Positions 3,001-63,859 of a stretch of DNA of 64,000 nucleotides are shown here, in pieces; position 1 is the first letter of the stretch; each line of letters begins with the position of its first letter. A program made the translations under genes and the position numbers. This DNA is from Amoebophrya sp. A120 (lineage: Eukaryota > Protista > Dinoflagellata), in assembly GCA_905178155.1 (NCBI GenBank), contig CAJINV010000002.1:10890634-10954633 (forward strand). Direction: 5' to 3'. A model generated the notes under the pieces. That model was not told the origin of the DNA. It saw nothing but the letters and a program-made list of their open reading frames with translations, and did not search any database.

Positions 3001-6000
3001 GTTAAACAGGTCGGGGGAAGGTTCGGGTACAGGTCTGGCTAGCCGAGGTCCGGGGAGGTCCTTTTTGCTACTCTCTCGTGTTCTGACAGCCCGACTCAGG
3101 TCGGGGAAAGCTGTTTTGTGCTGGTTTTGGGGTTTGGGAGCTAAGTTTTCACGGGTCCGAGCCCAAAACTCGGACTGCCGTCGTGTTTGGGGTGAAAATG
3201 GAAAAGGAACGACCTCGGCGGATCTCGCCGGACCTCCCGCTGGGCTGCGCGTTTGGAGTCGCTTCCCCCGGTGGTATTGCCAGCTTTGGCACTAGTTTTG
3301 GGTAAATTTTGGCAGCGCCATTTTTTTTTCTGTTTTCTTGGACATTTCGCCGAAACAGGCGGGGAGAATGTTCGGGTAGGGGGCAGGTCAGCCGAGGTCC
3401 GAGGAGGTCCTTTTTGCTACTCTACCGTGTTCTGACAGCCCGAATCAGGTCGGGGAAAGCTGTTTTGTGGTGGTTTTGGGGTTTGGGAGCTAAGTTTTCA
3501 CGTGTCCGCGCAAAAAACTCGGACTGCCGTCGTGTTTGGGGTGAAAATGGCAAAGAAACGACCTCGGCCGACCACGCCGGACCTCCCTCTGGGCTGCGCG
3601 CTTGGAATCGCTTCCCCCGGTGCTATTGCCAGCTTTGGCACTAGTCTTGGGTAAATTTTGGCAGTTTCATTTTTTTTTCGGTTTTCTTGAACATTTCGCC
3701 GAAACAGGCGGGGAGAATGTTCGGGTAGTGGGCAGGTCAGCCGAGGTCCGAGGAGGTCCTTTTGGCTAATGTATCGTGTTCTGACAGCCCGAATCAGCTC
3801 GGGGAAAGCTGTTTTGTGCTGGTTTTGGGGTTTGGGAGCTAAGTTTGCACCGGTCCGCGCCCAAAACTCGGACAGCCTTCGTGTTTGGGGTGAAAATGGC
3901 AAAGAAACGACCTCGGCCGACCACGCCGGACCTGCCTCTGGGCTGCGCGCTTGGAATCGCTTCCCCCGGTGCTATTGCCAGCTTTGGCACTAGTCTTGGG
4001 TAAATTTTGGCAGTTTCATTTTTTTTTCGGTTTTCTTGAACATTTCGCCGAAACAGGCGGGGAGAATGTTCGGGTAGTGGGCAGGTCAGCCGAGGTCCGA
4101 GGAGGTCCTTTTGGCTAATGTATCGTGTTCTGACAGCCCGAATCAGCTCGGGGAAAGCTGTTTTGTGCTGGTTTTGGGGTTTGGGAGCTAAGTTTGCACC
4201 GGTCCGCGCCCAAAACTCGGACAGCCTTCGTGTTTGGGGTGAAAATGGCAAAGAAACGACCTCGGCCGACCACGCCGGACCTGCCTCTGGGCTGCGCGCT
4301 TGGAATCGCTTCCCCCGGTGCTATTGCCAGCTTTGGCACTAGTTTTGGGTAAATTTTGGCAGTGCCATTTTTTTTTCGGTTTTCTTGGACATTTCGCCGA
4401 AACAGGCGGGGAGAATGTTCGGGTAGTGGGCAGGTCAGCCGAGGTCCGAGGAGGTCCTTTTTGCTACTCTACCGTGTTCTGACAGCCCGAATCGGCTCGG
4501 GGAAAGCTGGTTTGTGCTGGTTTTGGGGTTTGGGAGCTAAGTTTTCACGTGTCCGCGTCCAAAACTCGGGCTGCCGTCGTGTTTGAAGTGAAAATGGCAA
4601 AGAAACGACCTCGGCCGACCACGCCGGACCTCCCTCTGGGCTGCGCGCTTGGAATCGCTTCCCCAGGTGCTATTGCCAGCTTTGGCACTAGTTTTGGGTA
4701 AATTTTGGCAGCGTCATTTTTTTTTCGGTTTTCTTGGACATTTCGCCGAAACAGGCCGGGAGAATGTTCGGGTAGGGGGCAGGTCAGCCGAGGTCCGAGG
4801 AGGTCCTTTTTGCTAATCTATCGTGTTCTGACAGCCCGAATCAGCTCGGGGAAAGCTGTTTTGTGCTGGTTTTGTGGTTGGAGAGCTAAGTGTTCACGTG
4901 TCCGCGCCCAAAACTCGGACTGCCGTCGTGTTTGGGGTGAAAATGGCAAAGAAGCGACCTCGTCCGACCACGCCGGACCTCCCTCTGGGCTGCGCGCTTG
5001 GAGTCGCTTCCCACGGTGGTATTGCCATCTTCGGCATTAATTGTGCGTAAATTTTGGCAGTGGCGGTTTTTTATCGATTTTCTTTAACATTTCGCCGAAA
5101 CAGGAGGGGAGAAGGTTCGGGTAGGGGTCTGGTCAGGCGTGGTCCGGTGTGGTCCTTTTTGCTAGTCTGCCGTGTTCTGACAGCCCGACTCAGGTCGGGG
5201 AAAGCTGTTTTGTGGTGGTTTTGGGGTTTGGGAGCTAGGTCCCAACGTGTTCGCGTCCAAAAGTCGGACTGCCATCGCGTTTGGCGTAGAAATGGCAAAG
5301 AAACGACCACGGCGGACCAGCCTCTGGGCTGCGCACTTGGAGTCGCTTCCTCCGATGGTGTGGCCTTCTTCGGCACTAATTTTGGGTAAATTTTGGCATT
5401 GCCATTTGTTTTGGTTTTCATCAACATTTCGCCGAAACAGGAGGGGAGAATGTTTTGGTAGGGGGCTGGCCACCAGGAAAAGCAAAAATTAAAATTTATC
5501 ATGAAAGGTATCGGGCCATCACTACAATGCCGAAGCAGGGCGGCGTTCCGTGCAAGAAGACGGAGACAAGCGAGATGCGAACCTGCAACACCCAGGCGTG
5601 CGGCTCTATCGCGTACTGTGCCTGGAGCGACTGGGGGAGCTGGAGTAATTGCAGCACGACGTGCGGCACCGGGGAGCAGTGGCGCAGGCGGCACCTCGAG
5701 ATCATACAGCACGTAGGTGCGAATGACACCACCAGTATAATTTCGACCAACATTCTGAACGACCTGTTCGAGTTCCCGGACCGAATGCGCTTTGCGAGCG
5801 AGCACATGCTCTTCACGTTCTTCCTGGGAATTTTCACAACACTAGTAATGCTGGCCGTCACGCACCGGTTTGTGCAGGAGAGGAGAAGTTCCGGAGGAAG
5901 CAGTGCGCTGCTCTTCGACGATCACGTCGATTACGAAAGAGCGGCGACAGAAATGGTGCAGCAGTCGCACATAGCAGCGAACCACGCGGAAGATGCTTTT

Positions 6001-6947: not shown

Positions 6948-9900
6948 ATGCAGTCCATCAACGCATCGTCCGGTGCGCCGGCCAATTCGAGTTCGCCTGT
7001 GCCGTTGCAGCCGCAAAACCGAAACGTGCTAGAAATGCCGACTGGCACGGAGTCGCTGGAAATGCCAACAGGTACTGCCAGCATGGAAATCGGCAGCAAT
7101 CAGGCTAGTTCGACAAACACGGCGCAACTTGTTAATACTACAGCGGCGGTGAGCAGCGCGCCGATTGTTTCGGCCATTGCGCCGCAAAATCCGACCAGCA
7201 TCCTGAACACTTCAGCGTCTCCCACCGTGGCTACCATGCAAATGCCGACCGGGACGCAGGCACTCGAGTTGGAAGTCCATAATGGAGTACAAAGTGTGAG
7301 TGGTTGGAATTTCCACGCACAGCCGTTTGTGCCTGCCCAGCAGGCCGCGGCACATGCCTGGAACTTAGAAGCTCCAAGCTGGGAACCGAACGCGGTGGCA
7401 GCTGCGCAGTTCGAGTACAGATAACATCGGCTCCGACTTGAACTTACCACACTATCGGTGTAAAGAAACGAAAAGAAAATCATGTTTGAGAGAAAAGCAA
7501 AAAAAAATTCAAATTTTCGTTGATGAAAGTGCTTGGTTGATTTCGTTTCAGCAAAAAAATCCAGGCACCCGTCGAAAGAGCCGACGGTCGCACCGGAGTC
7601 CCACAACCATGTTTCTCCTGTCACAGAGCAGCCGCAGCCGGTCAAGCCAGCCTCGAATATCGTGGAGCATTTTGCGAATGCAATTATGGCGAAAAATAAG
7701 GACGAAGCTGGGACAGCTGAAGTCGAACAACCGAGAGAAGATACGGATGGATTGCCTGCGGACGCGCCGCCTCCGGGCATCGATATTGATTCAGAACGAG
7801 CTCCTATTTCGAAACGGAACGAAGAAACCGACGATAACTATACTGCTGCTGAAGCGAGTCCGAGTGCGAGGAGTCGTGCGCCAGCGCCTGCGGCACTGAG
7901 CAAGAAAGATGCATCATGCAACGATAGTACAGCCGGCGTTTCTGAAGAGGCACAAAAGTACGATGAAGCGCAAGACACATTGTCTGCTGATTCCGGCGGA
8001 GCTCCAGCACACCAGCATGGATCTCCATTTGTCGCCGAGGGAGACAGCAAGCTTTTCACTGCCCCGACCGCCGTAAGCCAATCTCACCTGTCTTCAGAAG
8101 ACCCTCAGCAACTGCCACACGCGTTCTCAGCTCCCGCACCAGGAAATGGGGGTTGCGTGGTGGACCACCAGCACGACTACGAGCAACAGTGGGCAGCTGC
8201 TGCTGCGTTACAACATCAACAGCAGCTCCAGCAACAAGGCCATGCGATGAATGTTGGCTCGTCGTCCGGTCAGCACCACCCGAACGCCGTAGTGCCGCAC
8301 CAGCAGCTGCAACATCACTTACAACCGCAACCGCCAATTACGTTGGGCGGCACCGCGCAACAGCTGCTGCAGCACGCAGCCTTGTTCGGAGCGGGGGGAT
8401 CCGGCACCGCAGGACCGACTGGATTAGCAGCAGGCCACACAGGTCAGCAGGGCAGCGAGAAAATCTCGGACATCAAGAAGAAAAACGCGGAGTACGAGAC
8501 GGAAGTGCACTTTCAAAAATGCTACAACGTGATGGCCGAGATTTGGGACTACTTTTCCGACATGCTGCCCCAGGACGGCTTCAAATTTCTCGACCTGGGG
8601 TGCGCGCCCGGCGGCTTTGCGTCCTTTCTGTTGGAGGACCCCCGCTGCGTCGGGGGCTGCGGGGTCACGCTGGCCAACAGCTCCGGCGGCTACCCGATTC
8701 GGCTCCGGCGCCCGAACTTCTGGATGCAGATCCGGGACCTGTTTGACCTGAACACCACGGACCTACTGTGCCAGTCCATGGTGCACGTGTGCATTTGCGA
8801 CGCGCAGTACCTCCGGAACAGCACGAGCTGGGACAAGAAATACAAGGGCACGAAGTGCCGGTCCAAGCAGCACGGGGTCTGGAGTCTGTTGGTGAAGCAG
8901 TTTTCCCTTGCTTTGTTTAAGCTGAAGCAAAACGGCATCCTCGTGTTCCGGTTTGGCTGGAAGGACAACCCGGAGGACTTGCAGACCATCTGGTACAAGC
9001 GGGTGGCGACCCGGTTGTTCACGCTGTGCAACATTCTGTTCGACAACGTGAAGGAGATCAAGTCCGACTACTACAACATCCTGGACAGCAGTTTCTACGT
9101 CTGCTGCGCGGGGTTCAACCGCGAGAAGTACGAGAAAACCAACGTGCACGGCATTCTTGTCGACCAGTTCTACGAACTGACCACCTCCCGCTGTGACGAG
9201 GCGTCCGACCACGAAGTGCTCGAGGCGGTCGACGCGTTTCGCACGGCGGACATGGACGAGAAAATCAACGAACTGCTGCACCGCGTGGAGAAGTTGCGGC
9301 TGGTGCACGAGCAGAGCAGCCAGCGCCGCTTCGAGCTGCTCCAGGAGGACGAGTTGGAGGATGCGAGCGGAGCTGTCGAGAAAAACGCCTCGTATTTGCC
9401 GAAGCCATTCGGTTTTATCCGTCCGGTGCCGGAGGAACTGAGGCGCGTCGACGCGAACGCGTCGATGTTTCAAAATTCCTCGCTCCAGCAGTGCATCCAG
9501 CTGAAGGAGCTGCTGAGCACCTACGCCCGTGTCGTCGACGTGGCGATCGTGCGGGACTGCGCGGTCGTGCGATTCAGCAGTCGCAAGATGGCGGAATGCA
9601 CCATCCGGGAGCTGAACTTCAACAAAACCTTCGGCGGCAAGTGCCGCGTGTGGCTGGAGAACCCGGATACGAACCCCTCACCAGAGTTCGAGAAGGGCTT
9701 GGACATCATGAAAAAGCGCAGTTTGATGTTGGCGACGACGGTGTCGGAGCGGGGCGTGAACCAGTACGGGCAGGACAAGGACGCAAAGGGGGAAAAGGAT
9801 CCGACGACAAGGGGATCCACGCGGAAGCAGAAACGGACTGCTAGTGCAGAGGGAGGATCGTCTTCTTTTGAAAAGGGCTCTACTTCTGTAGTTGCAAACG

Positions 9901-12900
9901 ACGATGCAGCGACAGCAGCGGTTCCTTCATCTTCTCTTGGAGAGGTTGTGACGGAGAAAAACAATGAAAAAAAAACATCTGTGTCTACTGCTGGAAATAA
10001 AGAAAGTTCCAGTTGTACTACTGCTCTCATTCCTGGAAGCGGTGCGTCCGCCCTACAGGCCGGCGGGGGCGGCGCGGGCAGAAAGAAGCTGCGGGGCCGC
10101 GCGGGACTTCTTGCGGCTGGAAGTTCTTCCTCCACTGGAGCAGGTTCTGCTTCTCTCGTAGCGAGCACGCAATCACAGGCCCACGCGAGCAAGGAGCCGT
10201 CCAGTGTCGGGGCGGCGACGCAGGGTATGGCGGAGAAAAGAGCTGGAGCTCCTGCTGCTGTTCCAGCAGCGAGCGTGTCCCAACAACAGGCGCTTCAGCA
10301 TCACCAGTCGCAACTCGTCGCAAACTACGGAAATCTTTTGATGCGGAAAAAAGAGGCCGCCTTGAACAAGCAGTGCATTAGCATCGACATGAACCGCATC
10401 AAATTTCCGGAAGAGAAAAAGAAGAACAAAACTACCTCGAGTTCCGATGCCGCTGGCGCAGCCAAAAAGGAAGACGAGCAGGGCGAACCTGTTGCGTCGT
10501 CGAGTGATGAGAAAGAACGCGATGACGTGCCGATTTTGATGCCTGAAAACGGCCCCAAAACGGCGGTCGAACCGACAGACGAGAAGGAAGCGGAGCTTAC
10601 CCTAGAAAAGATCGACGAAGTTTGTTGCGCATCATCTTCTACCTCGCAATGCGAAGACGATTTTGCTCCGGTTGCGGAGATGGAGCCGGGCTCTAATGGT
10701 GACGAAACTGTCCCTCAGTGCGGGACAGGGCAAGAAACAGACAACGAGAGGAGCGAAGCTGGAGACAAAACATCGACGAAAGAAGGTCCAGAATTTTTGA
10801 GCTCAACTTCTGTCCTCGACAGGGAGGGGAATGCAAGCAGTGGCGCTCCTTCAAGAAATATCGACCACGTACAAGGTAGTTTCGGAGAAGATGACAACGA
10901 TGAAAGCGACGCTCGTTTTGCGGCAGAGGCGCTGTTCGGGGTGGATGGTCCGAAGGGTTCTTCTCAAGTGGACGGCACCGACGAGGAAGTTTACTCCGAC
11001 GATTTGGATCTCGCGTCACCGCTTCACGCCGAGTCAGCGGATCATGATCTCCTTGACGTGCAGCTACAGCCGTCGGAGCATGATGTTGTTTCTGGTCAAG
11101 AATTGGACCAAGCATGCGCTGCAGGCAAGGTACCCGCTGACGTTCTTCCAGGTGTTGATGCGAACGGCAACGAAGAACATGAAGATGCGCCGAACCTACA
11201 ACTTGAGTCCGGAAACCGTCGCTCTTCTTCGTCGACGATATCTTCCTTGCATGCTGATCCAATAGTAGAGACCAGTAAAAAGCGAAAACAAGGAGGTAAA
11301 ACCGAGAAAGAGAAGGCGACGACAGGTGTCGCGAAGAGCAAGCCCGAAACATTTTTCGCCACAAACGCGGACGGTTCCGTGACCTACGTGAGCCGACATC
11401 CGGAGAAAAGCTTGAGCGCACTGCAAGCAGCAGGGACCAAGTGCAACAATGTGAACATTAAGGGAAGTTGTAGTACGTCGCTCGGCGGGGCGGGGGCTGG
11501 TGCCAGTTCCTCGCGAGCTATGTCCGCAGCCGCCGCGGCAAGCGGGTACTACGCTTACGGTGTCGGTGTTGCCGCTGCTGCAGGTAGAGGCGCCATGAGT
11601 GCGGCCGCTCTCCACGGGTTGCAGGCAGGCGCTTCGTGCGCCGGCAGTGCAGCCCGGGGAGGCCCCCCAGGCTCCGGTCCTGGCGCGACAGCAGCGCTGA
11701 ATGGATCCCAGCACCACTACGGGGTTGTGGGAAGCACGAGCAGCTTTTACAATAACTGTCCTTCGGCAGCGTATAACAGTGTTGCAGCGAATGTTGCAGC
11801 TGCGCACCACCCTGCCGCCCACCACCATCTCGGAGCTCCGGCGCATCCGCAACCTTCTCGCGGCTCCTACACGTATATCAATCACGCTGCGAAGGAGCTG
11901 TTTATCAAGGATTTCTGCTCCACGCAACTGCTCCAAACCGGAGACACGGAATCGATCACTTACCAGGGTCAACCGGTGACGACGTTCTATGATTTCTACC
12001 AGGAGCAAAAGCGAAAATACATGCCCGCAGTACCGCCAGAGGACCAGGCGCACTTCGAAGGAACGTCTCCGGTCGATGATGGTGTTACCGCTGCCGAGAG
12101 TAGGGTGGCACCAACTGGTGGCAACGGGGATCAGCATCGTTCATTAGAAACAGACGCTGGCGAGCAGGGTCTTGATTCAGCGTCTGGTAAAAATCCGGAT
12201 TTATTACCGGGCCAGCCCGGCGAAGGAACATACAATCGCCTCGACGTCGAGCACCATCAGGCTGCAGTTCCTTCCAAAAATCCGTTGGTTGGTTCCTTCG
12301 TTGGTTCGACCCTACTTGCTTCGGCGATGAGCATCGGTGGCCCCTTGGTGGAAACGTGCTTGCGCAAGGCCGAGTTGGAAGACAAGGCGTACAAGGCTAT
12401 GAAGCGGTACGGGTATGAGCAGGTCGTCAGTTCCGGCTACGTTCCGTCTGGCGGAGACCACGAGGAGTTCGAAAACGGCTTTCACTGGTGGGACCTGTCG
12501 GGGGCGAGTTTCTTCGAGGATGTATCCTGTGTAAAAACGTCCCCACCCCAGAGTTGTCATGCAAAATTGCGACTGCAGGAAGATTTGTAATGCGCATCTC
12601 CATGAGAGGCATTGCCAATCGTGCTTTGGAATTTGTAATGCTGCAAAGAGGATAAGCAGATGAATTTGATGTGATGCCGTTGTCCTTGCTAACATGCACC
12701 ACACTACGGACTGCAACTTGTCATGCGTGGCTCCCAAAAGTTCTGGATTTGTGTTGCTAAGTTCCCAACTTGACTATGGGTTGGGGCGGACGTTTTTACA
12801 TATGATAGGATGCGACGGACATACCCCTGTTCAACACGGAAATAAAGCACGAAAAAATGGGCGGCATTTATTCCGAAAACAGCAAGCGGGGTGGGCACAA

Positions 12901-21998: not shown

Positions 21999-22637
21999 CA
22001 ATTCTGGGGAGAGTGATGCGTATTTCAGAACGAAATTGGAACTTCTCACATTTGACCGAACTGCTTCTTTTTGGAATTGGAAGTGCAGGTCTACATCATT
22101 CTGAGAATACAACACGAACACTGTATTTGTAGTTTGAATACTGATGATTCCTCCCGACCGTTCATCATCATCACGGGCGACAGAATTCTCAACTGATATT
22201 TGCCTGCCAAATGACACTAAGTACACAGAATTACGAAGAAATACTGAGTCGATGACCACGAAGACGCGGACCACACGTTGCTTTCCGCCGTCCTTCAATG
22301 TCCGACTTGGCACTTTGCTGCCCTCCGCAAAATGTTTTCGTTGAAAATGCCAGAAGCACGACGAAATTCAAATTAATGTGAGTCGGTGCATTGATTCCTT
22401 GTCCTCCTCGGTGTCTCCCCTCGGTTAATCACAGTGTCGGTAAGAGCAGCATCTGTACACGGGCAACCGAACAAGACGGACAAATTTATCTATCTATCAC
22501 TGCTAGGCCTGAGCCTGTTATGGAAGCAGTACATTCTGACTACCTTTTCGTTTTGGTGTACATGTACTACTCATGTGCAGTTATCCCCGCGTTCCTTCAA
22601 TAACATAGCCCCGGCTGATGTATTTGATACTGCCAAA

Positions 22638-24602
22638 ATGCTTGATGTAAATACCAGTACGTTGACAACGCAAATACTAACCTCAGATGAAGTACTTCTT
22701 CCATGGTCGTCTGAACTCAAGAGCAAACGCAGTACGATTTCGCAAAAACTCAAATTTGGTGCTACAAACATAAACAACGACAAGAGCGCTGCCTTTCCCC
22801 GATCCGCGCTGGAAAATGCATCTGAAGGGGACGAAGCTGACGCGACCGTGGCCAGTTCTCCGCCACCGTCATCTCGTCCGGTGGCTGCGGTTTGCCTGGA
22901 GAAGAGTCACGGTAGTACAACAAGAAGCACAGATGTAGTGACACCTAGGCATTTGCTTTTGCCATCGGTAGCAACGACCGGGAAACGTAAAAAGCATGAA
23001 TACGAGCGCCGCAAGGGCTTCGTGCACGTGTGCGGTGGATCTGCGGCTGGGAAGTCGACGCGGATGCGTTTTCTCGTGGATTTCCTGGAGCGTCCGGAGC
23101 TGGTAGAGCACGCGACGGGAGGGCGCTTTACGGTCAGCAGCGCCAAGAAAGTTCACATCGAGCTTCCACAGGATGTTGATCCGATTCCCGTCATCAAGAA
23201 TGCGGGGGTGCAGCGAGAAAAAAAAAATCCCAACGAGAAGAAAATGGCTTCAAATTGTTCACCAAAGACGATGAAAGTCGCTGGATCTAAGAGCAAGATG
23301 AAGCAAAAGCAAATGCGTGTGGGTGCATCAAAAATATCACCAGGACATCAGACTACCAAGGCGGTGAAGGTGGAAGGGCCGAAAAGTACAAGAAAAAACG
23401 TACGAAAGGCAGGCTCGTTCAAGATGAAGACTGTGAAAAGTACTTCGTCGCTGACCAGTGGGGGCGAGTGTACACCGAAGGGGTCGGTGGCTGGATTGTC
23501 TTCCCGAGGGTCTCCGACGGTGGATCATATCGTCTGTGGTGCGGACAGGAAGTCCCGCCCGACATCGAAGAAAATAAGAGGCAAAGACACAGTCATACTC
23601 GGACGTAGTACGACTTCGACTGGGCCCTCGACTAAAAGAACTGCATCGAAAGTGTCTTCTATGATGAAAAAAGGGAAACGTACTGCCAAGAGCGAGATGA
23701 AATCCAAGCAGAAGATGGCTACGAAGCATGCGTCTTCTGGTGCCGCGGGTTCGTTGACCTCGCCCGCTCCAGAGAAATTGAGGAAAAAGAAGTCTCCGCT
23801 TGTGCATGCTCCCGCCTCGATCTACACGCTCGAACTGACTCAAGACGGCGGAAGTGTTTTGGGGTTTGGACCCGGCCCTGTGAAGGAGGGTGGAGGTTCC
23901 ACGCGTCCGGTGAGCAGCAAGCTAAGGGTCGCTATCGTCGGACAGAAGCAGCAGAACTTTTTCACAAAAAAAGATACTTGGACTAGCTTCGACAAGATAG
24001 CCCGCAAAAAAGATCAACTTTTTGTGGTAAGAAGCCTACTTCTATCTGAGACGTACGACTGTGATTTCATTTTCTACGAAGGGATGTTTGGGCTAATGAG
24101 CACGAACTCCTGGTGGTCGCCGGCTCCCCTGAGAGAAAGTTTATTTGTTGACGAGCCCAAAGAGAAACACAAGGACAAGCGCAAGCGCGGTGGAAGCTAC
24201 AACAGCTGCCGAAGTGCATGTCACGCGGAGAGTGGGTCGAGCGTTCCTCTTGAGTTCCACTACATTGTCAGCTTTTTCGACAATCCAGAACAGCAAGCGG
24301 CTCGGTTAACCGAGCGCACGCTCAAGCCGCGGAAGATTACGGAAGAAAATCTTCTCTGGGGCATGAACGAGGACGCGCGGAAGTTTGAGACGAAGCTGCA
24401 ACAGGTTGTAAATGAAAGCGAGCATGTAGTAAAAGCAAGCAACGACCACGAGCACGCCGAAAACAGCAGCTCCTTCGAAAATGTCGTTTTCGTAACTCGC
24501 ATCAAGCCATTGGAAGCAGATAAAGAATTTTTGGTAGACTACTTGTGCGAAAATATTTTGAAGACCACTAGAAATAGAGACCTCAAAAGCGTTCCGGGAT
24601 AG
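22638..24602 (+). CDS. Intronless P-loop kinase resembling phage 5-hydroxymethyluracil DNA kinase (5-HMUDK), with a large Lys/Ser/Thr-rich insertion
   Basis: Walker A VHVCGGSAAGKSTR at 23022-23063. Later blocks are LRVAIVGQ...WTSFDKI (~23979), FIFYEG...WWSP, FHYIVSFFDNPEQQAARLTERT and LWGMNE. The probable start is ATG 22638 in AAAATG context. The P-loop is clear; the family assignment rests on recalled motif similarity. Confidence 0.7.
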   Translation: MLDVNTSTLTTQILTSDEVLLPWSSELKSKRSTISQKLKFGATNINNDKSAAFPRSALENASEGDEADATVASSPPPSSRPVAAVCLEKSHGSTTRSTDVVTPRHLLLPSVATTGKRKKHEYERRKGFVHVCGGSAAGKSTRMRFLVDFLERPELVEHATGGRFTVSSAKKVHIELPQDVDPIPVIKNAGVQREKKNPNEKKMASNCSPKTMKVAGSKSKMKQKQMRVGASKISPGHQTTKAVKVEGPKSTRKNVRKAGSFKMKTVKSTSSLTSGGECTPKGSVAGLSSRGSPTVDHIVCGADRKSRPTSKKIRGKDTVILGRSTTSTGPSTKRTASKVSSMMKKGKRTAKSEMKSKQKMATKHASSGAAGSLTSPAPEKLRKKKSPLVHAPASIYTLELTQDGGSVLGFGPGPVKEGGGSTRPVSSKLRVAIVGQKQQNFFTKKDTWTSFDKIARKKDQLFVVRSLLLSETYDCDFIFYEGMFGLMSTNSWWSPAPLRESLFVDEPKEKHKDKRKRGGSYNSCRSACHAESGSSVPLEFHYIVSFFDNPEQQAARLTERTLKPRKITEENLLWGMNEDARKFETKLQQVVNESEHVVKASNDHEHAENSSSFENVVFVTRIKPLEADKEFLVDYLCENILKTTRNRDLKSVPG

Positions 24603-25213
24603 CAAGATCTCCTGTCTCTTCGACTGATTTGAAATTTCCGAAGTTTTACAAGGGCACAGCATTTCATCTACCACCGAGAAAGTCAGAGGAAAATCCGTTG
24701 CATGTACGAGTGTTCATTGCAATTGAGAAGCGCGAGTGTCTGGTGCAACACAGTCGCATTAGTACAGCAAGAAATCAGGAAGATTTTGATTCAACAAAGG
24801 GATACTCTTGTTCTTCTGCTTCTGTTTGGCACGCAAAAGAACGCCATACTATTGTTGGGGATCGATCATAAAGAAGAACAGGATCAGCGTTTACCATGTT
24901 GAGATGGCAGACGTGATAGCAAACTGAGCAAATTTCTACGGTGGATTGCTAAGTACCTTTTTTGCCCAGGACCCCATTAATTTATGACGTTTCCTTTTTC
25001 TTGTGAAGCATAATGATAATCAAGTCGACGTCTCGACCTCCTCCCCCGATTTCTGCCTGAGAGTCCGCTGCTTCAGCGTAGAAATGTGTCTACAACAGCA
25101 GTCAAGTAGAAAGAGTAGGCATAGTGTCAACATTTTTTGTTGAAGGCCAAAATAAATTTATAAAAACCAACGGTGAAAGCTGCTCCTGCGTATTTCCGTT
25201 TATCATGTTTGAC

Positions 25214-27235
25214 ATGGCGGCGGACAAGCAGAAGCGCCAGGCGGAGGCCCGGCGCAAGGAGGCGAAGCGACGGCTTTTGGAGCAGCAGCAACAGGCGGCG
25301 AAGAGCGCGGAGCTGCAGCGCGAGCGGGACGACCGCGAACTAGAGAAGGCGCGGGAGCTGCGACGCCTAGAGGAGCGACGGGACGCGGAGATCTTCGAAA
25401 CGGGCGGCGTGAAGATTCTCCGGCAGGGCTTGCACGTCATCCCCGACAGCCGAACGGACGACAAACTGGTGCTTCCGCCCTCCGTGTTTCAAGAACTGAA
25501 CAACCACCGGGTCTTCGAGCAGTTCGAGGGCCAAAACATGCGCGGCTCGGTGCTCACGTTCGAAGTCACCGTGTCGTCGGCCTCAGCAGCAGAGCCGGTG
25601 ATTATAGAGCAGGTCACCACTGGTGCAGCAGGTGATGTGGCGGGAACGAGCGGCGCGACATCAACATCAACTACAGTTATAGCGACCACGCACTGTGGCG
25701 TCGCGGAATTTACCGCCGACGAAAACACGGTGCGTTTCGGGCCGAAGGTGTTGTTTTCCCTGATGGCGCAGTGCGGAAACATAAAGCCGGAGCGGGTGAA
25801 TATTAGGTACAAGCAGCTCTCGCGCTACAACCGGTGCCGCTGCACCTTTCAGCCGAAAGGGGCCGGGTTCTTCCAGCAAGCGGAAAGTACTAGCGCAAAC
25901 AGTGGAGAGTTGGTAGGTCCTCAGGTGGTCAACATCGATTTGCGATCGGTGCTGGAGGCACAGCTGCAGTTCCACACGTGCCTGACGGAAAACGACGTGG
26001 TGCCGGTGCGGCACGAAAACAATACCTACTACCTGCAAGCGAAGCTGCTCGAACCGGACGACGCACTGCTGATCCTGAACACCGAGATGGAGATCGACGT
26101 CCTGCCGTCCGAACAGGTCGAATTTGAGCAGAAGCTGCTGGAGCGAAAGCGGCAAAAAGAGGAGCGGCTGAAGGCTATGTACGACGAAGAGGTGGAGCGC
26201 CGTAGGAAGTTTGAAGAAAAAGATCTTGCGGAAATGGAAGAACTAATGAAGAGCGCAGGTTCTGCTTCAATCTCGGCGAGCAATCTGCGACCAGTGGAAG
26301 TGCAGGTGCGCTTGCCGAACGGGAAAGCCATATCTAGGACGTTCTTCGTCGCGGCGAACGCATCTTCATCAAGCGCGGCATCGAACAGTACAGGAGCTTC
26401 CTCCGCCGCCGCGGGAGCAGCTGGTGGCGCGGCTGCGGCGAGCGGGAATTGTTCTACTGTGACCAAGGAAAGCAAGCTCGTTGATGTGTTTCACTGGTTG
26501 TCCCACACACCCGCCACAATGGAGTACACGTACCGGTGCGCGCAGAAGCACCAGCTGGTGCAATCCTGGCCGGGGCATCGACTGGTTCTGACTTATGACG
26601 ACCACCGGGACAAGACGTTGTTCGAGCTCGGGCTGCGCGGGCGGCGCGAGCAGCTGTTTTTCAAAGCTGTGAATGACGCCGCGGAGGAAGGTACTGCACC
26701 TGACACACAACCAAGAGCCGAGCCGCATGACCCTGCTTCTAAATTGTCCCCGTCTTCGGACCACCGGCTCCGCACTCAGTCAAAAGAGAGCAACAGCATG
26801 GGTGTCTCCGCGCCCGACCTACCGCGGCTGCCCTCCGACTGGCGGGACGCGGGCACCGACGCATTCGCGCGCATCGACGAGCAGACTCCGATGGTGGTTG
26901 ACAGCACGACACCGGCCAATGGGGAGGGGGGCCAGGGCCGGAGTGGGCTAGATGCTGCTGCAAACGGCGAAAGTGGCGAAACAAACAAACCCGAACCACT
27001 GGATTCCGTTACGATTTTCCACATGCTGCGGCAAGCCCCCGGCCAGCACACCCCAGAGGAAGACGCAGCGTACGCGAAGAAATGGGGCCGGGAACTGCAA
27101 CAACTGGCCGAGCTGGGATTCGGACCGGAGGTGTGGATCACCCGCTGCATTCCGTTCTTAAAGAAATGGAACGGAACCATGCCCCGTGTGGTAAACAGCT
27201 TGATGCTCGAGGAGGAAGTCCCGAAAATACACTGA
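25214..27235 (+). CDS. UFD1-domain protein with UBX and C-terminal UBA-like domains (p97/Cdc48 cofactor-like), intronless
   Basis: UFD1 motifs DKLVLPPSVFQEL, THCGVAEFTADE, TFQPKGAGF, LRSVLEAQLQFHTCLTEND and ILNTEMEID. UBX-like VQVRLPNGKAISRTF...QSWPG. UBA-like RELQQLAELGF...WNGTMPRVVNSL. Confidence 0.85.
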   Translation: MAADKQKRQAEARRKEAKRRLLEQQQQAAKSAELQRERDDRELEKARELRRLEERRDAEIFETGGVKILRQGLHVIPDSRTDDKLVLPPSVFQELNNHRVFEQFEGQNMRGSVLTFEVTVSSASAAEPVIIEQVTTGAAGDVAGTSGATSTSTTVIATTHCGVAEFTADENTVRFGPKVLFSLMAQCGNIKPERVNIRYKQLSRYNRCRCTFQPKGAGFFQQAESTSANSGELVGPQVVNIDLRSVLEAQLQFHTCLTENDVVPVRHENNTYYLQAKLLEPDDALLILNTEMEIDVLPSEQVEFEQKLLERKRQKEERLKAMYDEEVERRRKFEEKDLAEMEELMKSAGSASISASNLRPVEVQVRLPNGKAISRTFFVAANASSSSAASNSTGASSAAAGAAGGAAAASGNCSTVTKESKLVDVFHWLSHTPATMEYTYRCAQKHQLVQSWPGHRLVLTYDDHRDKTLFELGLRGRREQLFFKAVNDAAEEGTAPDTQPRAEPHDPASKLSPSSDHRLRTQSKESNSMGVSAPDLPRLPSDWRDAGTDAFARIDEQTPMVVDSTTPANGEGGQGRSGLDAAANGESGETNKPEPLDSVTIFHMLRQAPGQHTPEEDAAYAKKWGRELQQLAELGFGPEVWITRCIPFLKKWNGTMPRVVNSLMLEEEVPKIH

Positions 27236-34539: not shown

Positions 34540-37500
34540 ATGGGACGTAAGAAGAACCTTGGGCAAAAGGAAAAGGAGCCCGTGGGGCCCGATGGAAAGA
34601 GGCGATTCAAGTACTTCAACTACTACGATGACAGGGAATTTGAGACGGAAGAGCAACTGATCCAATACCAGCGCCAACGGCACTTCCGATGCCCCGAATG
34701 CGAAGTAAAGGCCCACTCCGCCGGCGCGCTTGCGGTACAGTGCTTTATTTTTCTTTGTGGCCGTCGTCGTTGCATGCATCCAAATCCATTCGAATGTGTC
34801 ATAGCTGCATCTTTTTTCCGGTAGCACCACGGTAGGAGCGCTAATTTCATTAGATCAGATAAATCTCTACTGGTTTTTCTACGTATTTGTGTACAAATAC
34901 AACATGCTCTGGTGGTTTTCAGGTTCACATGGAGCAAGTACACGGACGGGTTTTGAAAGAAGTTCCGAATGCACTACCGGGCAGAAACGATCCGAGGATG
35001 TTAATCATCGGCTTGAAGGGAGTACCTCCCCACCTGCTGTGGCAAAAAGCCCAAGGCTACGAATTGGTTTCAAGCTCGTGTCGCCACCCCGATTGTCCTG
35101 CGAACTCGTCATGCAAATTGAAAGATGTTTATGTTTTGAATCAGAAGCCCAAATTCAGCTTCGGTACTGTTCTATGTAGTATTCAGCCGGGCACGGAGAT
35201 TGTACCCGTACAGGTTCGGAATTATGATTTTCAACGGCAAGAAGAAAGCAAAAAGAAAAATCAGATAAATTTTTGTTGTACCCTTACTTAGTGTCACTGC
35301 CTCGTTGCAAAAAGCGGAAAAATTGCATTTTGCTGTTGGGGGGAAAGCGGCACGTTGTTTTCGCTGTATAGCAGCACGGACTTTGAGGAACATGCCTTAA
35401 GGATAGTGCAACAAGAAATGAACAAAACGGGTGGGACCGCAGCTGCAGCAGCCGCGGGAGCTGCAGCCGGAGGCATGGCGGTCCCACCCATACAGCCCGG
35501 CATGATGATGCCTGGCGTGCTAGTGCCGCCACTAATGCCCCCCGGAGCTCCGGGGCGCTTGCAGGCACTGCCGCTACCCGGGATGATGATGCCCCCCGGC
35601 GCTCCGGGCGGTGCCGGGATGCCTGGTATTTTTATACACATAGATATTGTAGTGCTGCCCTTTTATGATCATTGCGCAAAAAGATTATCGTGATGTTGCC
35701 TGCTGCACAGTACGTTATGTCATTCAGCTGAAAACAGTTTCGCTCTGAAAAATCTTCATGCCGACGAAAGTCGAAAATTACCAAGAATGATTCTTGGTAA
35801 TTTTCGACTTTCGTCGGCATGAAGATTTTTCAGAGCGAAACTGTTTTCAGCTGGACGAGCCACCAGCGCCTCACTGTGGAATAATTGACACTAACTCATT
35901 GTCGCTCTTATGGAAAAAATTGAAAAAATGTCACAGGAATGCCACCGATGATGCCGCCAGGGACGATGCTGCCACAAATGATACCGGGAATGGGAGCTCC
36001 CATGTTGATGAATCCAATGATGGTTCCGCCTGGGCACGGTATGCCTGGCCTAACGAAAGGTGGCGGCGCGGCATCGTCAAGTAGCGCTCTGCCGTCGACA
36101 ATGCAGAGCGCTGCCGGAGCTCCTCCTGGTCCTGCAGGGCAAATGCAGGTACTCAAAACTTCTCGCATCGAAGAAGGTCGACTCTACCTTTGCAAGACAG
36201 CTTAGTCTTCTACTTTTAGTTTTACTTGGTGTTTTTCTTCAAGTATTTCTGTTTGCTATTGCGCTTGGGATTGAGGAAAGGGGACAAAAATAACCCTAAT
36301 AACAGGACCACTACGCGGCCGCCGCACGCGATAGGGACGACCAAGCATCGCACGAGCAGTCTAAGACGCCACAGAGCAGAAACCATAAGGGGACCACATC
36401 AAAGGGTCGCTATGACAAGAACACTGGCGGAATGATGAAGGGCACATCGGCCAACGCGGTTCCTCTAGGAGCGAACAAATTTGTAAATAATTTTTCCGCT
36501 GGCGGTGGAAGCAGCGAGGGAGCAGTGAACTACCCTGCCCCGGCCGATACGGGTGGAAGCAGAGCAAACGATAGCTCAACTACTGTCCCGCTGTTGTCCA
36601 GCGGCAATGTCGAAGATCTTCAGGGGAACAGAATACTGATGAACCACCCCGGAGGTCAGCACGGTCAGCACCAGCAAGGCGGCAATTTTCCGTCGCAAGT
36701 GCAGTCACAGACGCTCAACAACGTGAACTTCCCGGAACAAACCGGTGACCCACCACCACCCTTGTCGGTTTCGCAATTTCATCCCAGCATGACGCAACTG
36801 CCACAGCAAAGCAGCCTGCTGACCGGGAGCATGGGTCAGTTTGCTTACCGGCCGCCTCCTCCGAATCCTGGTTCGATACATCAACCGGGGACCGCGGCTC
36901 CCGCACTGGCACTGTCCAGCGGGACCACGGTGGGCATGAACCAGCATCAGCCGTCCCCCATGCCGGCTGCGGATCCGGTAGCGTCGCTTTCCCTGGGTCT
37001 TTCCGCCGCGCCGAAGAAAGCGGGCTCGGTCCTGTCCTCCGCGGCTGGCGGTGTGCAGCGAGAGAGATCTCCGCGACGGGGACCGCCCACTGGGCCAGAC
37101 GGAAATAATCACTTTTCAGCTACTGGCGGAGAGTTAATACAACAATTCCCCGCACCGGGCGGCCCTGGGGCGCGTCCCGGCTTTCCACCGCTGGTACTCA
37201 AAGCCGCAATTTTTGATGTGATAGAACGTGTTGCTGCTGCATCTTCGACAGCACCTCCTAGTTTGTTTTTTTTTGTGTTGTAAGTACATACAACTACGGG
37301 AGGACGTAACGCCAGCGACATTTATAATTCAAACTTTCACTTTGTCAGATCGCGAAAACCGCGGGTGGACCCTTCACGAGCTCCGTCGGGGTTGTCAAGG
37401 CGAGAGCGACAGCGGATCCCTACGGCTTCAAAATGGCCGAGGTGCAAAGCAATCAGGTTCTCAACTGGCCCTACATGTTTGTGCAGCCAGAGGAAATCCG

Positions 37501-62800: not shown

Positions 62801-63859
62801 CACGAAACCAAATTTTCGCGTCTCGTGGAGGAGACGGAAACAGCGAAAGACGCAGCGGACGAGCGTTTTCGCGCCACCACGAGCACGATGGCCTCGGAGC
62901 ACGAGGAAAAGCTGACGTCGCTCGAGCGCGACCACGCTCTAGCACTGCAGGAACTGCAGCTGAAGGCTGACGCCGAAGCGGCCAGCCTGGTCCAAACCCA
63001 CAAGGCCGGGCTGCAGGAAGTAGAGCAGCTCCACACCAAGCATCTCGAGGCGGTCAAGCGAGACCACGCGGCCGCGATCGAGGAACTAGAGGCGAGTCAC
63101 AACACCGCAACCAGGCGCCTCCACGACGAGTACGCAAACACGCTGGACCGGGTGCACGAGGAGCAGGACGCGCGGGTCAAGGAGCTGCGAAAGGAGCACG
63201 AGACGGAACTTTTCGACAAAACCACCGAATTGTCAAACCAGCATGCGGAGAAAACGAAGAAGCTGCAGAACCAGCACGAAGAGGAGCTCACCGCGCTGGA
63301 GGAGCGAACGGCGTCGGACATCTCGCAACTGAAGGCCGGGCACCTGCGCACCACCCAGATGCTGGACCAGGCCCACCGCGCCGAGATTGACACCCTGCGG
63401 GAGGAACACAAGGCGGTGCTGGAGGAACTAAGCATCGCCAACGGCGCGGTCGTCGAGGAAACCGAGAAGAGAATAAACAAAATCGAACAGGAGCTCACCG
63501 AGAAGGTGCGACAAGTGCAGGAAGCCAAGAACGTCCTGGAGCAGCAGCGCGTCGCGGACCTCGCGGACCAGCGGGCGCAGTACGAGTCGCAGCTGAACGA
63601 CGTGCTGGAGGAACACGAGAAGGAAGTAAGCAAAGTGGAGAAGGAGGTGCGGCAGGAGTTGGAGGACGTCGGTAGACTATCCTGTGCAAAAGTATCGTAC
63701 TCGTAGTAATCGCAAACATGCATTACAAATCTTGCTCTTAAGGTTTTATTTCTCATGCTGAGAAAATTTGTAATGCATTTATTATACGAGTACGATAGGA
63801 TACTTTTGCACAGGATATAGACTCGCGCTCGAGCAACTGGACGAAAATCTTCGTGCGCA
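59806..63859 (+). CDS. Long coiled-coil protein, 3' end outside the window; exons 59806-61708, 61974-63671, 63814-63859
   Basis: A disordered S/T-rich N-terminus precedes an extended E/K/L/H-rich coiled coil. Intron 61709-61973 is phase-1 GT-AG. The coiled-coil frame (RLALEQLDENLRAQ) resumes after the element at 63678-63817. Confidence 0.8.
63678..63817. mobile_element. Introner/MITE-like foldback element (140 bp) with perfect 19-bp TIR and 5-bp TSD TAGAC
   Basis: TATCCTGTGCAAAAGTATC (63678-63696) pairs with GATACTTTTGCACAGGATA (63799-63817). Inner arms are TATCGTACTCGTA/TACGAGTACGATA and ATGCATTACAAAT/ATTTGTAATGCAT. TAGAC lies at 63673-63677 and 63818-63822. Confidence 0.85.

What the first reader, a model, noticed from the sequence alone, without database searches (positions are those of the whole stretch)
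22638..24602. Phage-type 5-hydroxymethyluracil DNA kinase homolog in a dinoflagellate-like eukaryote: candidate thymidine hypermodification system
Seen: an intronless ORF with Walker A (CGGSAAGKSTRMRFLVDFL) followed, in order, by LRVAIVGQ-x12-WTSFDKI, FIFYEGMFGLMSTNSWWSP, FHYIVSFFDNPEQQAARLTERT and LWGMNEDARKFE. Knowledge: phages that hypermodify thymidine (ViI/kutterviruses, PhiW-14, SP10, M6) use a P-loop 5-HMUDK to phosphorylate 5hmU in DNA, after which an amino-acid:DNA transferase (aGPT-PPlase family) installs the side chain. Dinoflagellates are the eukaryotes known to replace a large share of genomic T with 5hmU. Inference from memory, not from a search: the kuttervirus kinase carries the same ordered blocks (roughly GxSGxGKxTR..FxxWL, LIFVGQ..WTSxDxI, CEG..W.P, Y..RI..RS, W..NE). 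If this holds, the organism may phosphorylate or further modify its 5hmU through a virally acquired enzyme, a DNA-modification pathway I do not know to be described in eukaryotes. The lack of introns fits acquisition by transfer but is weak evidence, since two neighbouring host genes are also intronless.
Basis: partly seen in the sequence, partly recalled or inferred. Interest (0 to 1): 0.9.

Follow-up and report, generated by a model that had tools for sequence, protein, structure and literature searches.

The report
Phage-type DNA base kinase in eukaryote
A gene in a probably parasitic, dinoflagellate-type eukaryote encodes a distant relative of the phage enzymes that add phosphate to the modified DNA base 5-hydroxymethyluracil, with every near-invariant residue kept, so it likely carries out a DNA-base modification step so far described only in bacterial viruses.

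Summary
The 654-codon ORF and its motifs are real. Gene-bounded, ungapped contigs from RNA-like runs cover it. Pfam misses it because a 214-residue basic insert (net +40) splits the domain. A profile of 148 5-hmdU DNA kinase 2 (PF18747, ViI gp243) relatives, built without the query, scores it 41 bits (E 1.5e-5 at library size). The part without Walker A scores 24.3 bits against a shuffle maximum of 6.2. All 11 columns conserved in at least 90% of the family are kept. The ESM Atlas's own model matches a PF18747 cluster best. The phage relatives it groups with lie beside amino acid:DNA transferases, but the exact donor branch is unresolved. Homology is therefore well supported. Not shown: kinase activity, 5hmU in this organism, and any partner transferase (none in the window; no genome held). 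No other eukaryotic family member appeared among the 150 listed hits. The last 86 codons show pN/pS near 1 against a close relative. Verdict: a virus-derived, probably active 5hmU-DNA kinase; a full hypermodification system is unproven. The scan noted PF18723-like genes in other dinoflagellate DNA (unchecked), not this kinase.

The parts
22638..24602 (+). ORF, 654 aa (P0001): divergent 5-hmdU DNA kinase 2 (PF18747-like) homolog
22579..24659 (+). Transcript-shaped, ungapped contig. It starts at an AG behind a pyrimidine-rich tract with 4-5 unmatched 5' letters, read as a spliced-leader acceptor (inferred; the letters were not shown)
   Evidence: the neighbour's contigs in X3 and X4 also end at an AG (24968)
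22638..23003 (+). N-terminal Ser/Thr-rich extension (res 1-122), predicted disordered, ending in KRKK (116-119, NLS-like); no hydrophobic signal stretch visible
   Evidence: pLDDT 28-48
23004..23165 (+). Kinase core part 1 (res 123-176): strand 1, Walker A G133-x-S135-x-x-G138-K139-S-T141-R142, helix, first strand of the hairpin
23166..23807 (+). Basic low-complexity insert (res 177-390; K+R 24%, net +40, several NLS-like runs), in the loop of the beta-hairpin, absent from phage homologs, predicted disordered
23808..24137 (+). Kinase core part 2 (res 391-500): G435, W448, D452 (found in essentially all family members; putative general base, inferred), E481-G482, P495
24138..24245 (+). Second, short insert (res 501-536) with KRKR
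24246..24599 (+). Kinase core part 3 (res 537-654): R556-x3-R560 lid motif, W574, N577, C-terminal helix

Best explanation
The gene is a virus-derived homolog of phage 5-hydroxymethyluracil (5hmU) DNA kinases that likely uses ATP to phosphorylate the hydroxymethyl group of 5hmU in DNA in this eukaryote's nucleus. Shown: homology, full retention of the near-invariant residues, a contiguous predicted P-loop fold, and a place among host genes with transcript-shaped coverage. Inferred: K139/T141/R142 and R556/R560 bind and activate ATP; D452 deprotonates the 5-hydroxyl, as the conserved Asp does in polynucleotide kinases (known chemistry, recalled); the eukaryote-specific basic insert gives nuclear import and non-specific DNA tethering in place of the phage gene-cluster context. 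The product would be 5-phosphomethyl-dU, either kept as a mark or used as a leaving-group intermediate by an unlinked partner that adds a side chain or returns the base to thymine.
For: Query-free family profile: 41 bits, E 1.5e-5 at 1.84e9 sequences, three colinear segments. C-part alone 24.3 bits against a maximum of 6.2 in 1000 shuffles; Walker-A-kept null maximum 31.4 in 1000. Other proven 5-HMUDKs score less (ViI gp67 20.9, M6 gp54 18.2, PhiW-14 gp37 8.0) and ViI dNMP kinase -2.8. 11 of 11 columns at 90% or more kept. ESM Atlas model, independent of my alignments: top structural row is a PF18747 cluster (TM 0.69 by target, 210 aligned) ahead of a glucokinase-named cluster 0.61, uridine kinase 0.58 and thymidylate kinase 0.55; all ten listed feature rows are viral clusters, seven carrying PF18747/18748/18751. 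AF2 core mostly pLDDT 70-94 across the split. Best solved folds are polynucleotide kinases (Trl1 kinase Z 10.8, rmsd 3.9, 187 aligned; PNK Z 8.8), above NMP kinases at Z 8.4 or less. ViI gp243 is a proven 5hmU-DNA kinase (PMC8989533, passages). Three of four examined GKSTR-clade phage loci carry an ADDT gene next to or two genes from the kinase. Core dinoflagellates make 5hmU in DNA with TET/JBP enzymes (PMC11572971).
Against: No activity data. Pfam's PF18747 model does not report the protein or its pieces; identity to the nearest relative is only 25-28%. The Atlas structure score is under that tool's bar for naming a family, and feature scores of about 0.90 are at its lead level. The Gly after R-x3-R-S (about 90% conserved) is Leu562 here. 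No 5hmU measurement was found for Amoebophrya-like lineages. No partner gene in the window. Against ortholog L002, the last 86 codons give pN/pS 0.99 versus 0.16 for the neighbouring gene, although 11 of the 14 changes lie in a loop and the tail. No second eukaryotic lineage among the 150 listed of 212 hits.
Confidence: 0.5

Rival explanations
1. Host-directed or salvage role: the organism is an intracellular parasite of dinoflagellates and the kinase acts on 5hmU from the host's DNA (marking it, blocking or aiding its breakdown, or clearing 5hmU that was salvaged into the parasite's own DNA) rather than on a base the parasite makes itself.
For: Amoebophrya are intracellular parasites of dinoflagellates (PMC11453091, passages); core dinoflagellate DNA has 22-45% of T as 5hmU (PMC11572971). 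No core-dinoflagellate ortholog surfaced. Fast C-terminal change would fit host conflict.
Against: No signal-peptide-like hydrophobic stretch at the N-terminus (sequence). The lineage is inferred from genome features only. The pN/pS sample is 86 codons.
Confidence: 0.2
2. Repurposed or decaying gene: the same ancestry, but it now phosphorylates another hydroxyl (for example DNA or RNA 5' ends, as polynucleotide kinases do) or works mainly as a basic chromatin protein through its insert.
For: Long branch (1.65); the fold is shared with polynucleotide kinases; pN/pS about 1 at the C-end; 214-residue basic insert; no cluster context.
Against: All near-invariant family residues are kept, plus less conserved ones such as W448, P495, W574 and N577, despite about 75% divergence. 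The frame is intact and covered by transcript-shaped contigs.
Confidence: 0.25
3. Ordinary nucleotide or small-molecule kinase (thymidylate, uridine, gluconate type) that resembles the phage enzymes by chance.
For: Only weak PRK and AAA Pfam hits at the Walker A; with the C-part alone the Atlas structure rows are generic kinases at TM 0.47 or less.
Against: Significant family score without Walker A; PF18747 ranks above NMP kinases with the whole domain; non-family Walker A proteins reach at most 32.6 in the insert-tolerant score against 41.9.
Confidence: 0.03
4. Contaminant or inserted virus fragment, not a host gene.
For: Intronless; all relatives found are viral or unnamed metagenomic.
Against: It lies on a 13.2-Mb contig beside a UFD1/UBX gene, syntenic in L002; GC3 0.56 lies within the neighbours' 0.53-0.71; none of 16 other long ORFs hits PHROGs; contigs start at an AG acceptor like the neighbour's.
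Confidence: 0.02

Closest known systems
Salmonella phage ViI gp243, 5-hmdU DNA kinase 2 (Pfam PF18747 HMUD2)
   Same: Same ordered motifs and spacing (GQ-x11-WTS-x-D), 11 of 11 near-invariant columns, same predicted fold
   Different: About 20-28% identity; 214-aa basic insert, 36-aa second insert, 122-aa N-terminal extension; eukaryotic host; no adjacent transferase; fails Pfam's own model
'GKSTR' subgroup of uncultured-phage PF18747 kinases (P0242, P0244-P0246, L055-L060); label mine
   Same: GKSTR Walker A, EG.F motif, short C-terminus; quick tree groups the query with them at SH-aLRT 99; their 7-sequence profile scores it 32.9 bits
   Different: They sit in hypermodification clusters (ADDT, GNAT, GATase; L058 also has a thymidylate-synthase-family gene and PF18723). 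AU tests do not reject other placements (p 0.76 and 0.21)
Other proven 5-HMUDKs: M6 gp54 (PF18748), ViI gp67, PhiW-14 gp37, SP10 gp186
   Same: Shared Walker A, G..D, EG and R-x3-R pattern visible in the three sequences I fetched; same reaction (PMC8989533)
   Different: Different subfamilies; they score 8-21 bits on the PF18747-like profile. SP10 gp186 was not fetched
Dinoflagellate 5hmU made by TET/JBP homologs (PMC11572971); kinetoplastid base J
   Same: Eukaryotic 5hmU in DNA, the substrate this enzyme would need; base J is the known eukaryotic second step on 5hmU
   Different: The known eukaryotic second step is glucosylation. No kinase step appears in what I read of the dinoflagellate papers
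Polynucleotide kinases (fungal Trl1 kinase domain, bacterial and T4 PNK)
   Same: Best solved-structure matches (Z 10.8, 8.8, 7.5)
   Different: They act on 5'-OH ends; sequence identity 11-14%; a shared fold shows no function

Membership tests
PF18747 5-hmdU DNA kinase 2 | Passes Pfam's curated score cut-off (25 bits) | tested here: not met
   Not reported for the whole protein or pieces; so filed as a divergent homolog, not a formal member
PF18747 5-hmdU DNA kinase 2 | Significant colinear match to a broad family profile built without the query | tested here: met
   41 bits, E 1.5e-5 at library size; C-part 24.3 bits vs shuffle max 6.2. The 148 members were first recruited with a query-containing profile, but all 148 also pass a phage-only profile at E<1e-5
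PF18747 5-hmdU DNA kinase 2 | Near-invariant residues (GxSxxGKxxR, G, D, EG, R-x3-R) | tested here: met
   11 of 11 columns at >=90%; 18 of 31 at >=60%; the Gly at about 0.90 after RxxxRS is Leu
PF18747 5-hmdU DNA kinase 2 | P-loop kinase fold closest to this family | tested here: met
   Atlas top structural row PF18747, TM 0.69 by target, below that tool's naming bar; Foldseek E 2e-4 to 1e-3 for four viral models, partly circular
5-HMUDK enzymes | ATP-dependent phosphorylation of 5hmU in DNA | not testable with these tools
   Needs an enzyme assay
Thymidine hypermodification system (kinase + AADT + 5hmU source) | AADT/aGPT-Pplase partner encoded with the kinase | tested here: inconclusive
   None detected among the window ORFs scanned; genome not held; eukaryotic genes need not be linked and intron-split genes were not assembled
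Thymidine hypermodification system (kinase + AADT + 5hmU source) | 5hmU source (dUMP hydroxymethylase or TET/JBP) and modified T in DNA | not testable with these tools
   No genome; no chemical data found for this lineage
NMP / small-molecule kinases | Best profile and structure match to TMK, UK, GK or DPCK | tested here: not met
   They rank below PF18747 and below polynucleotide kinases; no Pfam hit above cut-off

The most novel reading that the evidence does not exclude
A dinoflagellate-lineage eukaryote has captured a phage 5hmU-DNA kinase, fitted it with a histone-like basic tail, and uses it with an unlinked glycosylase-fold (aGPT-Pplase-type) partner to write phospho-5hmU or a phage-style hypermodified thymine into nuclear DNA, its own or that of the 5hmU-rich dinoflagellate it infects. 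This would be the first base-phosphorylation step in eukaryotic DNA.
Probability: 0.3. Interest if true: 0.92.

Novelty: new variant of a known kind. Interest (0 to 1): 0.72.

Why it matters
5-HMUDKs are the only enzymes known to phosphorylate a base within DNA and have been described from phages. The fate and purpose of the abundant 5hmU in dinoflagellate-lineage DNA is a long-standing open question: a writer is known, but no downstream or eraser step. This gene names a candidate second step, and an established assay (ATP plus 5hmU phage DNA, LC-MS) tests it directly. It would add DNA-modifying chemistry to the virus-derived chromatin toolkit of this lineage, or reveal a parasite enzyme aimed at its host's modified DNA.

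Tried and rejected
Direct Pfam and PHROGs scans of the ORF and its pieces: only weak Walker A hits. Word-index homolog searches with the C-part: nothing but self. tblastn of the C-part against 50,697 phage records: no match. Pairwise BLASTP to ViI gp243 (E 0.011) and RP13 ORF133 (E 0.07) and hhalign to four GKSTR proteins (69%, Walker A only) were too weak alone. A narrow 46-sequence phage profile gave only 8.9 bits in HMMER. The first AF2 model (12 rows, pLDDT 40) gave uninformative searches. No solved 5-HMUDK was found with M6 gp54 as query, so the PDB search cannot show the family itself. AU tests could not fix the donor branch, and the free tree search missed a better tree. The genome-contig scan gave two partial N-terminal matches only, not followed. 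A search of the window for a recalled spliced-leader motif found none. Run X10 had no reads on the stretch (no test); X6 cover was patchy and included intergenic DNA; X7 showed many 1-nt deletions, read as assembly error; lack of X3 cover on the upstream gene is no finding. Iyer et al. 2013 could not be read. The gap upstream of the L056 kinase was not annotated. The second half of the neighbour-gene pN/pS comparison was not obtained.

Full report
Observation. The ORF 22638-24602 (+) encodes 654 aa (P0001) and holds the quoted blocks in order; the GQ-WTS spacer is 11 residues, as in ViI gp243. Contigs from three RNA-like runs (X3-X5; RNA is the tool's guess; one sample, one study) cover 22579 or 22635 to 24655-24659 without gaps and stop at the gene's ends, while run X1 continues in one piece. 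A poly(A) metatranscriptome from another study (X9) has one 255-nt contig over the 3' end with one mismatch. In X3 and X4 this gene's and the next gene's contigs begin at an AG behind a pyrimidine tract; I read this as spliced-leader trans-splicing, but the unmatched letters were not displayed.

Host. The protein lies on a 13.2-Mb contig. Neighbours include UFD1/UBX, FtsJ, RRM and TSP1 proteins; none of 16 other long ORFs hits PHROGs. All ORFs longer than 350 codons are on the + strand. Elements with terminal inverted repeats occur at 12523-12807 and 63678-63817, and one interrupts the UFD1/UBX gene in the syntenic relative L002. Co-oriented genes and such introner elements are described for Amoebophrya (PMC7789003, passages). 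The lineage is therefore inferred as Amoebophrya-like, an early-branching parasitic dinoflagellate relative; no name was returned by a tool and no genome is held.

Homology. Standard searches fail because inserts cut the domain into three pieces. I fetched ViI gp243 (PF18747) and 87 relatives. A profile of 46 of them gave 8.9 bits in HMMER. With long inserts allowed it gave 41.9 bits, reached by 0 of 500 shuffles, 3 of 500 with Walker A held and 4 of 500 for the C-part alone; non-family Walker A proteins reached at most 32.6. A profile search of 1.84 billion representatives with alignment A6 found 212 hits at E<=0.001, of which 150 were listed. From 148 family domains without the query (all also pass the phage-only profile at E<1e-5) I built a broad profile: P0001 scores 40.8-41.0 bits, E about 1.5e-5 at library size, in three colinear segments. 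The C-part without Walker A scores 24.3 bits (maximum of 1000 shuffles 6.2). Proven kinases of the sister subfamilies score 20.9, 18.2 and 8.0, and the ViI dNMP kinase -2.8. P0001 keeps 11 of 11 columns conserved in at least 90% of members and 18 of 31 at 60% or more; a Gly at about 0.90 is replaced by Leu562 and two columns before the second core part were not aligned.

Structure. The ESM Atlas's own model of residues 120-654 has a PF18747 cluster as top row (TM 0.69 by target, 210 aligned), ahead of generic kinases at 0.55-0.61; the tool marks the score as under its naming bar. Feature hits are viral kinase clusters at about 0.90. AlphaFold2 with a 77-row alignment gives a core mostly at pLDDT 70-94, with residues 177-390 disordered in the loop of a hairpin; this model is guided by the family alignment, so searches with it are partly circular. 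Foldseek returns four viral models at E 2e-4 to 1e-3; three are unnamed and one is a Dickeya phage 'homing endonuclease', a label that gp243 orthologs carry in GenBank. The named SP10 and PhiW-14 kinases appear only at ranks 17 and 25 (E>0.1). Among solved structures the best are polynucleotide kinases (Trl1 kinase Z 10.8, rmsd 3.9, 187 aligned; PNK Z 8.8), then uridylate and gluconate kinases at 8.4.

Origin. The nearest sequences (25-28% identity) share a GKSTR Walker A. A quick ML tree of 50 rows (the four window anchor rows and 23 of the 73 other rows left out; 225 columns) groups the query with seven of them at SH-aLRT 99 on a long branch. AU tests reject neither a tree with the seven as a clade without the query (p 0.76, with higher likelihood) nor one with the query beside six other family rows (p 0.21), so the donor branch is open. 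Of six viral loci fetched for this subgroup I annotated four; three (L058, L059, L060) have an amino acid:DNA transferase gene next to or two genes from the kinase, two have GNAT and GATase genes, and L058 also has a thymidylate-synthase-family gene, PF18723, a second PF18747 kinase and dCMP deaminase. The subgroup is thus part of thymidine-hypermodification clusters.

Distribution in eukaryotes. The only eukaryotic relative found is L002 (84% aa over the last 86 residues). I checked sources for 20 of the 149 other listed hits; none came from a eukaryotic protein set, and apart from P0001 only one listed hit is longer than 540 aa (a kinase-ADDT fusion). 62 weaker hits were not listed, and an insert-bearing ortholog would score low, so absence from core dinoflagellates is not shown.

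Against the reading. Versus L002 the last 86 codons have 14.5 nonsynonymous changes in 208 sites and 3.5 synonymous in 50 (ratio 0.99), against 0.16 for 300 codons of the neighbour. Eleven of the 14 changes are in loop 590-611 and the tail; three are in the core. The sample is small and omits most catalytic residues. No partner gene is in the window, and I found no 5hmU data for this lineage.

Mechanism. Phage 5-HMUDKs, gp243 included, transfer one phosphate from ATP to the 5-hydroxyl of 5hmU in DNA; a transferase then displaces it, and these phages also turn 5hmU back to thymine (PMC8989533, passages). Core dinoflagellates carry 22-45% of T as 5hmU, made on DNA by TET/JBP homologs (PMC11572971, abstract, sections 5 and 7). 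I commit to 5hmU-DNA phosphorylation in the organism's own nucleus (0.5), with the basic insert as DNA tether (inferred from net charge +40 and NLS-like runs). Rivals: repurposed or decaying (0.25), host-directed or salvage (0.2), ordinary kinase (0.03), contaminant (0.02).

Literature. Nine full-text searches turned up no paper describing a eukaryotic 5-HMUDK. Passages only were seen of PMC8989533, PMC13458397, PMC11453091, PMC11071213, PMC7789003 and PMC13229309; no supplements were read. Iyer et al. 2013, which defined the family, was not held and may list eukaryotic members, which limits the novelty claim. Two earlier scan notes report PF18723-like genes in dinoflagellate DNA from other genomes; I did not check them and use them only as a lead for a partner.

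Verdict. Observation confirmed; homology about 0.95; activity on 5hmU-DNA about 0.7 in all (own or host DNA); a full hypermodification pathway about 0.3. New variant of a known kind; interest 0.72.

Noticed in passing
window 12523-12807 and 63678-63817: Elements with 22-25 nt terminal inverted repeats and similar ends, introner-like
   Followed up: partly
L002:1780-2029: 250-nt element with 32-nt inverted arms inside the UFD1/UBX gene; the window's copy of the gene is one open frame, so this looks like a presence/absence polymorphism of an introner
   Followed up: partly
window 35720-35858: 69-nt arms, 97% complementary, 1 nt apart: near-perfect long hairpin
   Followed up: no
window 3501-4320: Two minus-strand ORFs begin with the same 70 residues about 350 nt apart, indicating a tandem repeat
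   Followed up: no
window 7527-12587: 1687-codon open frame with an FtsJ-like methyltransferase domain (E 6e-8); several other frames of 600-1800 codons have no Pfam or PHROGs hit
   Followed up: no
window 25205-27235: UFD1 N-terminal plus weak UBX domain protein, intronless here
   Followed up: partly
L058:3826-13055: Phage thymidine-hypermodification cluster with two PF18747 kinases (one behind a 300-aa N-terminal part without a Pfam hit), ADDT, GNAT, GATase, PF18723
   Followed up: partly
P0242, P0193: Kinase fusions: GNAT + PF18747, and PF18747 + ADDT in a 1278-aa protein
   Followed up: no
phage collection: Many gp243 orthologs are annotated as guanylate kinase or homing endonuclease; Ralstonia phage RP13 ORF133 is an unannotated PF18747 member
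   Followed up: partly
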